A DNA stretch of 51,029 bases, from the NCBI RefSeq assembly GCF_001447785.1, contig NW_015164196.1, forward strand, positions 937,558 through 988,586, in the 5' to 3' direction. Within the stretch, counting starts at the first letter, position 1. Every line of letters begins with the position of its first letter. Position numbers and translations under genes: made by a program. This document shows positions 6,198 to 21,766 of this stretch, in pieces. Below the pieces are notes generated by a model. It was given only the letters and a program-made list of their open reading frames with translations. It was not told the DNA's origin and ran no database searches. Origin of the DNA: Gekko japonicus (taxonomy: Eukaryota).

Positions 6198-6476
6198 CTG
6201 ATTTACTGTTTTTAATCTTTAGAACTCAAAAAAGCCACACGCCATTCTGGTTTGGGGCAACATTTCCACAACACAGCTGGAAACAAAAATATGACAGGAT
6301 AGGCTCAGCGCAAGTTGGTAGATAATGCAATCAGTGCTGGCAAACTGGCTGGATGTGGGTCCAGCCTAGAATACATAGCTCTTGCAGGAAAAAAAGAACC
6401 CTTTAAAAACCAGAAATAGATATATGAAACCCTAAGGTTTGGTAGCAGTGTCGTTCCAAATGCAAGATGGGGGACA

Positions 6477-16461: not shown

Positions 16462-16550
16462 TTGTGTTCGTTCAGCTCCATCTCCAGCTCAGCTGCCTTG
16501 GAGGCCAGGCCGCGCTGTTCCTGACGCAGGCGGTTAAATCCAGCCACCAC
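16462..16550 (-). CDS. PFDN2: PFDN2 exon 2
   Basis: VVAGFNRLRQEQRGLASKAAELEMELNEH; 89 nt; acceptor TTACAG, donor GTATGC. Confidence 0.97.
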
Positions 16551-18571: not shown

Positions 18572-20105
18572 CTTGAATAAAGCTTTGTTGATCTTAAAGG
18601 TGCCACTGGACTCAGACTTTGTTCTGCTGCTTCAGACCAACATGGCTGCCCACCTGAATCTACCCTTTTCCCAGGCATTCTCTATTCCCAGTATGTTCTC
18701 TCTCAAACCTGATCAGTATGATCCAGAAAGAACACCAATCCAAGCATGCTAGCAAGCTATCTGAACAGGAAGGTGTGCATTTTCAAAGGTCTTGCCCACA
18801 TCAGCGCCATTTTCCCTCCATCAGCCCCTAGTGAAATCCATTTTCCCTGCTGCACTACCAAAGGGCTTTAAAAAAAAACACCCGACCACAGGCAATTACT
18901 ATTCCACTACAGTGCAATAACATTATGACAATCTAGTGTCACAGTCTACTAGTTCCTCTGAATTCCTTTAATCATCTTTTAATGACAACTGGGAATTCAG
19001 AGACCCTAGTTGCTCATGGCAACAGATAGTCATGATTTTTTAAAAGTCCTCCAGTACCATGGCAGGGTGAAAATCCAGGAAAAATCGCAGCTGACCAAGA
19101 AAAGACTGCACAAAACTACTGTGTGGATGCTACAATGTCATTGTGCAGTCACAACCATGATAAAAAGCAGTATTCTCACAGGATAGATGCAACTCTTGTC
19201 AACCATCCAGTTAACAGACCACCATATGACTGCAGCAAAATACTCCAAAAAGATGAGAAACGTGGAAAGTTTCCCTTATCGTTTCATTCCGACCAAACCT
19301 TTTCTCAATTGACCCAAAAGCCAACCCAATCCTTCCAGCTTCAGAGTGCTTTCTCTCTACCCACATCCTCCTCACCTTCTTAAAGCCTTACGTAGCCTCA
19401 GTTTTGCTACTGATCCTTATTTCACAGTACAGAGTTAAAGCTAATTTAGTTGCTACTTGAAGATGCTTGCAGTGTCCAGAGATGCTCACCACTTTATCAT
19501 AGCTTCAAAAAAATACCAGCAAGGACTGCTATTTACAACAGATACTCAGCTTTGCTCACACTCAGAGGACCTCTTTTTTCCTGCATTTAAACCTTCCCAG
19601 AAACAGAAAAACAAATAACTAGCTAAATGTGCTGGCTCAATGTTAACACATATCCCTTCAACACAACCTCATTCCTTCAAAAATAATTCAAAATAAATTC
19701 AGGCTTACATGACACCACACAGCCTCCACTCCTTTTCTCAAATACCTCACCTATCCCATGGCTATCCAAAACTGGTCTTTCCAATCCTGCAAAGACCCTA
19801 CTGCAACCCCTTCTCCCCGATTTCAAAGCCAGGCGCTGCAGAACGACCTTGATTACATCATACTCAACACTCTGGACATGCCCAAAGGCACTCCCGTCTT
19901 TCCTCTGAAGACACAGCTAAGCAACACTATCGAAGGACTTGGTTTATATTGGATCTTGTGTACCACACACAGGGAAAAAGCCATGATTTATGCCACGCCT
20001 CGCACTCTGTCCATGGCCAGAGGCACCCCACCCCATCCCATGGCTTCCCCAAGCCTACCACCTCCCTTTGCCTTTTCCCTCTGCTTCGCCTGCTCAGTTC
20101 AGCAC

Positions 20106-20207
20106 CTGCTCTGCTGTCAGGGGCTTGGCAGCACCTCCAGCCGCGGTACCACCTCCCCCACCGGAAGGAGCCGCCGGGCCGCTTTTGCTCTTGCCGCTCT
20201 CCGCCAT
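20106..20207 (-). CDS. PFDN2: PFDN2 exon 1
   Basis: AAAATGGCG start; MAESGKSKSGPAAPSGGGGGTAAGGAAKPLTAEQ; donor CAG|GTGCTG, phase 0 into exon 2. Confidence 0.92.
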
Positions 20208-20847
20208 TTTCCCTCCTAGCGTAAGAGAGAAAGAAACACACAGAACGAACTTAACGGATCTCGAACTTCCGGGGGTTGGAGACCACGAGAGCCCTCGTGA
20301 CCGGAAGTCTCGTTTTCTGCGTCCCTCACGAATTCACTTCCGGGCCACGATCTCCGGTCTCATAATTTCCCCCTTTTACATCCTTAGAAGGAACACCTGC
20401 GAAGTTCTGATTCCCCCGATACCTGCTCTTAATGTTCCCCATCAATTCAGGCGCCATCTTTGTTAAGGGCGTTTAGTGAAGAATTATGCTCTCTAGGTTA
20501 CTAAAGAGCGAAAATAAGTAAACAGAAATGGTCAAGAAGAAACCTGACACCGATTATGGTAACCCTTTCCTCTCTCGTTAAGATCTATCGTCGCCATTTT
20601 TGTTGAGGGTATAGCTTTTTTTCCCTTTTCGACTGCCATCTTTGTTCCGGACTGTGGTTGCCTTGCGTCGCCATCTTAGCTAAGGGACCCCATGTAGTCT
20701 ATGGCATAGAGTGCTCTATCGGCCATTTTTGTTACGGATGACTTTGACTAGGAAGAGCCATCTTTGTTAGAGGCACTGACCGACTTCCTGCTTGGACTTT
20801 TGATCCTGGTCTTGGGGGCGTTCTCACCCGCTTCCGATTTTCTACTC
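20208..20847. promoter_or_regulatory. PFDN2/NIT1 bidirectional CpG-island promoter and 5' UTRs
   Basis: Head-to-head genes; ETS/GABP motifs ACTTCCGG (20265, 20336) and CCGGAAGT (20301); six GCCATYTT YY1-core motifs 20453-20774. Confidence 0.85.
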
Positions 20848-20849
20848 AT
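20848..20849 (+). CDS. NIT1: NIT1 exon 1 coding part (AT of a split ATG)
   Basis: CTCAT|GTACGC donor; joined to the G at 22659 it gives an ATG in frame with all downstream exons. Inferred. Confidence 0.55.
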
Positions 20850-21766
20850 GTACGCATGGGGGGAAGAGGGAGAAGGGTCGGTATGTGGGTGAAGGAAAAG
20901 CGTTGCTTGGTTTTAATAGGATAGAATTTTGGGATATGGGGACGGGGGGGGGGGGGCGGGACGGAGCGTGACACTATTGGGGGTCGGGCAGGAGGGGAAT
21001 GTGATTGAAGACAAACTTCTGGTTGTTATTAGCCTGAAGGGACTCAACGTGACGAGGGGAGAGAGAAAGCTCAAGTCGGGAGCAGGCTCAGGAGAACGCA
21101 GGGCCGAGAGAACTGGGTTGCTGTTCTGTGGAACTCCTTGCCACTGGATGCTGAATGAGGGGGTGCTTTAGCTGCCAGCTTTCAATGGTTTATTTTCACC
21201 TTTGACAATAGCCCAATGCACAGAAACGCAGCTGGTAATGTTTCTTCCCACCCTGTATCTAGGTTAATCTTGCCTACATTGTCCTTTCCTGGAATGCTTA
21301 GAGAAACGGGAGGTTTAAATGCAGCCTCAATTGCTTGTGCCACCTCATTGGCTGGGTTATAATGCCTTTTCTTAACTGTGACCTCTAACAAAATGTGAAT
21401 CAGAATGTTTTCCACTGCCCGAAATTGAGCAAGTTCTGATTTAGCATATCAAATTTTGACTTTAAAATTTAAAAGTAACCCAGCTTAGTTTTATGCCCAC
21501 AAGCAAAAAAAAATAAATTTGAACTGAAATATTTGATCCAGGAGGTAGGGAATTAAGTGTGGGTGAAACGTTCAAACAAAATCAAAATTTAAATTGGGAG
21601 ACTGGGTGCAAATGTTTAAAAACCATATAGATCTCTTTACATTGGTTAAATATAAAACCCAACTCCCACAGGCACTGAAAACTGTTGGCACACTGATAGT
21701 GCCATCTTACGCAGAGTAACTGCAGTTTAAGCCCATTGATTGCAATGGGCTTAGTTTTCATAGGAT

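What the first reader, a model, noticed from the sequence alone, without database searches (positions are those of the whole stretch)
20453..20774. Array of six co-oriented 18-bp motifs (GCCATYTTTGTTNNGGG) with unique spacers in the PFDN2/NIT1 bidirectional promoter
Seen: GCCATCTTTGTTAAGGGC (20453), GCCATTTTTGTTGAGGGT (20593), GCCATCTTTGTTCCGGAC (20635), GCCATCTTAGCTAAGGGA (20670), GCCATTTTTGTTACGGAT (20722), GCCATCTTTGTTAGAGGC (20757); all on one strand, start-to-start spacing 140, 42, 35, 52, 35 nt, with dissimilar spacers. Knowledge: GCCATNTT is the YY1 core. The shared TGTTNNGG extension goes beyond the usual YY1 motif, suggesting a longer zinc-finger footprint, a YY1-plus-partner composite, or an RNA element in the NIT1 leader. 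Motifs retained while spacers diverge argues for selection rather than a decayed minisatellite (inference). This is the strongest unexplained structure in the window.
Basis: partly seen in the sequence, partly recalled or inferred. Interest (0 to 1): 0.7.

Follow-up and report, generated by a model that had tools for sequence, protein, structure and literature searches.

The report
Six YY1-THAP1 docking sites, shared promoter
Six same-direction DNA words lie between the start sites of the PFDN2 and NIT1 genes; each is a YY1 motif followed three bases later by a full or partial THAP1 motif, a pairing already known from human promoters that likely docks these two partner proteins, and only the number of copies is unusual.

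Summary
The six motifs are real, single-copy and far above chance. RNA reads place them between the PFDN2 and NIT1 first exons, not in a leader. The unexplained extension is a THAP1-type site (TNNNGGCA) three bases after the YY1 core; copy 6 matches perfectly, the others at 2-4 of 5 letters. Elsewhere in this genome the same geometry marks CpG islands: 12 of 18 sites at spacer 3 against 11 of 73 at other spacers, and 13 of 17 unselected neighbouring YY1 cores carry it. It occurs at PSMB5 (three copies) and GUSB, published THAP1 targets; all 10 promoters I could name have a human THAP1 peak. THAP1-YY1-HCFC1 co-binding and a gapped THAP1 motif are published, and this scan found a similar five-copy array in a skate. 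Against: no binding data, no orthologue available, no human THAP1 peak listed at PFDN2/NIT1, and one other DNA sample changes a key T. Verdict: a new, copy-rich member of a known element, most likely activating PFDN2.

The parts
20453..20471 (+). Composite site 1: YY1 core, 3-bp linker, THAP site at 4 of 5 defined letters; preceded by C (CpG form of the core)
20593..20611 (+). Composite site 2: THAP site 4 of 5; its T (20604) reads G in DNA run X1
20635..20653 (+). Composite site 3: THAP site 3 of 5
20670..20688 (+). Composite site 4: THAP site 3 of 5, variant linker
20722..20740 (+). Composite site 5: THAP site 2 of 5 (weakest)
20757..20775 (+). Composite site 6: perfect TNNNGGCA match, next to the NIT1 first exon
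20106..20290 (-). PFDN2 first exon (start codon at 20207; 5' end approximate), spliced to exon 2 near 16550; a plain YY1 core without THAP site overlaps the start codon (20203)
   Evidence: 66 junction reads in 3 runs
20265..20343 (.). Three ETS/GABP-type words (20265, 20301, 20336) between the PFDN2 start and the array; motif name recalled
20783..20790 (.). ETS-type word at the NIT1 end of the array; motif name recalled
20780..20849 (+). NIT1 first exon (5' end approximate), spliced to 22659; the junction forms an ATG opening a frame into exon 2
   Evidence: 14 junction reads in 2 of 3 runs
19800..21000 (.). CpG island covering both first exons and the array (CpG observed/expected 0.5-1.1)

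Best explanation
The array is six same-direction copies of a YY1 core followed after three bases by a full or partial THAP1-type site, lying between the PFDN2 and NIT1 first exons, and each copy likely docks YY1 and THAP1 side by side to activate the promoter, most likely towards PFDN2. Shown: the sequence, position, register and genome-wide spacing bias. Inferred: THAP1 binds the GG(G)CA half and stabilises YY1 on the neighbouring core (published: YY1 occupancy falls when THAP1 is lost), THAP1 recruits HCFC1, and the complex keeps the CpG island active. Several imperfect copies likely add up to what one to four better copies give at other promoters. The copies may have arisen by local duplication, after which the spacers decayed.
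For: (1) Register: all six have T at position 12 and G at 16; 21 of 30 defined TNNNGGCA letters match, reached in 0 of 200,000 simulations at local base frequencies (the motif is; register chosen after seeing other loci). (2) Letters not used in the search: among 83 other genomic hits of GCCATYTTTGTTNNGG, the next three letters are GCA in 9 of 18 CpG-rich against 1 of 65 CpG-poor loci (p=1e-6). (3) CGCCATYTTWG-N4-GGR lies in CpG islands in 12 of 27 loci examined against 0 of 30 for the N4-CCY control (81 and 89 hits in all). (4) Spacing scan, first 90 of 197 loci: CpG-island sites are 12 of 18 at spacer 3 and 11 of 73 at spacers 0-2 and 4-6 (p=3e-5). (5) 13 of 17 neighbouring YY1 cores that no search selected have GG at 16-17, and 10 have GGC[AG] there; offsets away from the G run give at most 4 of 17. 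(6) Three co-oriented copies sit at the PSMB5 promoter and one at GUSB. All 10 named promoters have a human K562 THAP1 peak, 7 with both signal columns at 9 or more against 14 of 176 rows hand-counted in two table parts. (7) The genome encodes a THAP1 with a near-identical DNA-binding domain. (8) In those 10 promoters 18 of 20 listed sites read AAGATGG towards the gene; here that strand points to PFDN2.
Against: No binding or reporter data exist for this genome. Only 1 of 6 copies is a perfect THAP site and copy 5 matches 2 of 5 letters. The human THAP1 peak table has no row labelled NIT1 or PFDN2 and none between USF1 and DEDD, so the human orthologous promoter is apparently unbound in K562. 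DNA run X1 differs at the THAP T of copy 2 (20604) and once in a spacer (20535), so that single comparison shows no sign of purifying selection. Raw genome counts do not favour the extension (87 NNGG against 174 NNCC; repeats inflate these). Thousands of THAP1-bound promoters do not change on knockout. The genome has 19 THAP-domain matches, so another THAP protein is possible. The array is 250-554 bp from the PFDN2 start codon but abuts the NIT1 start, so the target gene is open.
Confidence: 0.78

Rival explanations
1. The composite is real, but the second half is read by another THAP-domain protein, or a different factor, rather than THAP1.
For: 19 THAP-domain matches in the genome; five of six copies deviate from TNNNGGCA; Kheradpour and Kellis read the extension of the first THAP1 motif as HNF4-like.
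Against: The same geometry sits at PSMB5 and GUSB, and all 10 named promoters have human THAP1 peaks.
Confidence: 0.1
2. A plain YY1 cluster of the Peg3 or YY1-intron kind, whose shared extension is a neutral leftover of tandem duplication.
For: Linker TGT is shared by 5 of 6 copies, more uniform than at other promoters; copies 2 and 5 share a 7-letter upstream word (p=0.076); X1 varies at position 12 of copy 2.
Against: Similarity skips positions 13-14 and returns at 16-17, in the register seen at unrelated promoters; spacers do not align. Duplication may explain the origin but not the register.
Confidence: 0.08
3. One long zinc-finger protein, or YY1 plus an HMG-box factor on CTTTGTT (motif recalled), reads the whole word.
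For: CTTTGTT is present in copies 1, 3 and 6.
Against: The linker varies freely at other promoters that keep the core and GGGCA; the core also occurs alone, as at the PFDN2 start codon.
Confidence: 0.03
4. An RNA element in the NIT1 leader.
For: None found; reads in the bin 20737-20797 may touch copy 6.
Against: Zero depth over 20493-20736 in 3 RNA runs, at low coverage; folding z=+0.75; no credible Rfam match.
Confidence: 0.01

Closest known systems
THAP1 gapped ChIP-seq motif (UA4, Wang 2012, PMC3431495; first THAP1 motif of Kheradpour and Kellis 2014, PMC3950668; passages read, logos not visible)
   Same: UA4 is described as a gapped, extended THAP motif with a GGGC half; the other as a YY1 match with added specificity. 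Both descriptions fit this word.
   Different: Identity is inferred from text because the logos could not be seen. Neither passage states a 3-bp YY1-THAP spacing, a polarity towards the gene, or arrays.
THAP1-YY1-HCFC1 module at PSMB5, SHLD1, ECH1, CUEDC2 (bioRxiv 2024.06.11.598406, 2020.07.19.210773, 2021.08.03.454996; passages)
   Same: THAP site TNNNGGCA, YY1 co-occupancy, CpG-island promoters; human PSMB5 has three THAP sites, and this genome's PSMB5 has three composites.
   Different: Six mostly imperfect copies; PFDN2/NIT1 is not in the human K562 peak table; no function tested here.
Clustered YY1 sites (Peg3 intron 1, YY1 intron 1, ECMFinder list; PMC2665242 parts 1-3 and Supplementary Table 1, PMC2743690 part 1, PMC2615030 passages)
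   Same: Three or more cores within 500 bp, same orientation, unconserved spacers; Peg3's cluster acts as an orientation-dependent activator beside a bidirectional promoter.
   Different: Intergenic rather than intronic; each core carries a fixed second half; Nit1 and Pfdn2 are not among the 31 mammalian genes, while Psmb5 is.

Membership tests
THAP1-YY1 composite promoter site | YY1 core (C)GCCATNTT | tested here: met
   6 of 6 have GCCATNTT, 3 of 6 with the leading C; consensus
THAP1-YY1 composite promoter site | THAP site TNNNGGCA | tested here: inconclusive
   perfect in 1 of 6; 4, 4, 3, 3, 2 of 5 letters in the rest; 21 of 30 overall
THAP1-YY1 composite promoter site | Same spacing as at known THAP1 targets in this genome | tested here: met
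   spacer 3 at PSMB5 and GUSB and enriched in CpG islands
THAP1-YY1 composite promoter site | CpG-island promoter near active start sites | tested here: met
THAP1-YY1 composite promoter site | THAP1 gene present with conserved DNA-binding domain | tested here: met
THAP1-YY1 composite promoter site | Human orthologous promoter bound by THAP1 (supporting, not defining) | tested here: not met
   no NIT1 or PFDN2 row in 4,845; none between USF1 and DEDD; one cell line
THAP1-YY1 composite promoter site | Occupancy by THAP1, YY1 and HCFC1 and dependence of expression on them | not testable with these tools
   needs ChIP, EMSA or knockdown
Clustered YY1 sites (ECMFinder definition) | Three cores within 500 bp near a start site | tested here: met
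   six in 322 bp; definition
Clustered YY1 sites (ECMFinder definition) | Cluster kept at the orthologous promoter of other species | tested here: inconclusive
   no relatives held; metagenome scan gave no orthologue; absent from the mammalian list
Minisatellite or transposon-borne repeat | Alignable units or many genomic copies | tested here: not met

The most novel reading that the evidence does not exclude
YY1 and THAP1 bind as one rigid, polarised unit (core, three bases, THAP site, with AAGATGG facing the regulated gene) that is kept across amniotes, and this lineage has placed PFDN2/NIT1 under THAP1 control by building a six-copy array that the human promoter lacks. This would give a DNA-level geometry for the dystonia mutation F81L, which keeps DNA binding but loses YY1.
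Probability: 0.35. Interest if true: 0.55.

Novelty: new member of a known kind. Interest (0 to 1): 0.36.

Why it matters
THAP1 is the DYT6 dystonia gene and YY1 its partner, but the passages I could read treat their motifs as separately enriched. A fixed spacing and polarity visible from genome sequence alone gives a direct test of how they cooperate and a better predictor of real targets among thousands of peaks. The array itself is a natural dosage series of six graded sites. As a locus it is a housekeeping promoter with more copies than usual, so its own interest is modest.

Tried and rejected
The 87-against-26 excess over the reversed-pattern control was rejected as evidence: the control contains a CpG, and the NNCC control gave 174. 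CGCCATYTTTG alone is not enriched (1066 against 1088). A repeat origin was tested: arrays of GCCATTTTAGGT-type words exist at dozens of loci (89 pair matches), but 26 of those loci gave no blastn hit to this promoter and the promoter is single-copy. The metagenome scan (76 loci) gave no orthologue by blastn or tblastn (the first protein check was out of frame and was redone). No RNA holder was listed by the run search; raw-read runs were laid instead. Rfam gave only a sub-threshold hit outside the array. The extension profile was partly trained on loci chosen with array-derived patterns, so its score (p=3e-4) is not counted; one search is the unbiased test. Gene naming failed for most of the 20 ten-kb loci. 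Of the 10 named promoters, 7 rest on PDB matches (weak, 89, 90), PTRH1 on a Pfam family, and SREK1 and B3GALT6 on recall; the human peaks for COQ9 and B3GALT6 are labelled CIAPIN1 and SDF4 (shared promoters, recalled). Papers not held: Kim 2006 Genome Research, Kim and Kim 2009 on longer YY1 motifs, Yellajoshyula 2017. The THAP1-knockout RNA-seq table was too large to read, so any effect on human PFDN2 or NIT1 is unchecked; bioRxiv supplements were closed. No complex was predicted, since the tool takes no DNA.

Full report
Observation. Local shuffles give 0.047 YY1 cores on average against 6 observed. Spacers do not align (1 of 15 pairs at p<0.05), TRF finds no array, and the 481-bp stretch matches only itself in the 2.49-Gb genome. 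That the organism is a lizard is my inference and was not tested.

Position. Reads from three RNA runs (low depth) show PFDN2 exon 1 on the minus strand spliced to exon 2 (66 junction reads) and a short NIT1 exon 1 ending at 20849 spliced to 22659 (14 reads; mapped). No read covers 20493-20736. The array therefore lies between the two first exons of a CpG island, flanked by ETS-type words. The RNA folds no better than shuffles and Rfam has nothing credible.

The extension. Raw genome counts did not favour it, but context did. Among the 83 other hits of GCCATYTTTGTTNNGG, the three letters after the pattern were GCA in 9 of 18 CpG-rich loci and 1 of 65 CpG-poor loci. CGCCATYTTWG-N4-GGR was in CpG islands in 12 of 27 loci examined, the CCY control in 0 of 30 (about 8 control loci belong to one repeat family). 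T-NN-GGGCA fits the THAP1 site, given as TNNNGGCA. A scan of spacers 0-6 between core and THAP site (197 hits, first 90 loci examined) put 12 of 18 spacer-3 sites in CpG islands against 11 of 73 others, 8 of these at spacer 6 and mostly one repeat-like family. In an unselected test, 13 of 17 further YY1 cores within 400 bp of such sites had GG at positions 16-17 and 10 had GGC[AG]. The array is in this register: all six have T12 and G16, copy 6 is a perfect site, and 21 of 30 defined letters match.

Known targets. One of the first spacer-3 hits lies at the PSMB5 promoter, which has three co-oriented composites; human PSMB5 is activated by THAP1 through THAP sites and carries three (passages), and Psmb5 is on the published list of YY1 clusters. 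Another is at GUSB, linked to THAP1 in a preprint seen only as a listing. Ten promoters could be named; all have a human K562 THAP1 peak and 7 a strong one, against 14 of 176 rows counted by hand (column meaning inferred, background rough). Clusters of three or four copies occur at PSMB5, COQ9 and ELOA; six is the most among the loci I fetched. The genome encodes THAP1 with a near-identical DNA-binding domain.

Mechanism. Shown: sequence, register, position, spacing bias, polarity. From papers (passages): THAP1, YY1 and HCFC1 co-occupy promoters; YY1 occupancy drops by over 75% in F81L and over 90% in null cells at three targets; THAP1 is mainly an activator. Inferred: each copy holds YY1 and THAP1 side by side, THAP1 brings HCFC1, and several weak copies add up. 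In the 10 named promoters 18 of 20 listed sites read AAGATGG towards the gene, which here points to PFDN2; I put that at about 60%, since the array abuts the NIT1 start.

Against. The human peak table lacks PFDN2/NIT1. Five copies are imperfect. DNA run X1 changes the T of the THAP site in copy 2. No orthologue could be obtained, so selection on this array is untested. Most THAP1-bound promoters do not respond to knockout.

Known or new. Wang 2012 describes a gapped THAP1 motif with a GGGC half and Kheradpour and Kellis a YY1 motif with added specificity in THAP1 peaks; I could not see the logos, but these are most likely this word. Searches for the exact words, for YY1 with PFDN2 and NIT1, THAP1 with NIT1 and THAP1-YY1 spacing showed no paper on this locus or on the 3-bp spacing, within an open-access library and mostly from listings. 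I reached the THAP1 reading (note) before seeing that this scan had reported a five-copy array of the same kind in a skate; that note led me to Wang 2012. Other papers seen in passages only: PMC1904287, PMC2615030, PMC13631171, PMC5511047, PMC12698189, PMC5933800, bioRxiv 2024.05.28.596138.

Verdict. Real; a new, copy-rich member of a known element; interest 0.36.

Noticed in passing
L011-L040 (e.g. L016, L032, L037); A multicopy repeat family carries short tandem runs of co-oriented YY1-like words (GCCATTTTAGGT type) upstream of a conserved, broken reading frame. It resembles a DIRS/Ngaro retrotransposon gag by recall; Pfam gave no match. Unrelated to the array.
   Followed up: partly
window 20251 (minus strand): Three reads in run X22 splice from an upstream donor straight to PFDN2 exon 2, skipping the stretch with the start codon.
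   Followed up: no
L422, G000:C4486:1002499: A perfect composite in a CpG-rich stretch about 14 kb beyond the window, facing DEDD; human DEDD has a very strong THAP1 peak. Whether it is the DEDD promoter was not checked.
   Followed up: partly
L315, L300, L182, L198: Inverted pairs of composites within about 50-200 bp at several promoters, possibly serving two divergent genes or a THAP1 dimer.
   Followed up: no
L419, about 190 bp upstream of the THAP1 start codon: A YY1 core with GGG in the THAP register but lacking T12, in the THAP1 gene's own promoter.
   Followed up: no
L257 (PSMB5), L213 (COQ9), L306 (NDUFS2), L344 (ELOA): In 4 of the 7 promoters with a mapped start codon, the ATG inside a composite's YY1 core is the start codon itself.
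   Followed up: partly
window 6241-6259: An isolated near-composite (one core mismatch, perfect THAP site) outside a CpG island.
   Followed up: no
window 20849/22659: The NIT1 exon 1-2 junction creates an ATG opening an N-terminal extension before the hydrolase domain.
   Followed up: no
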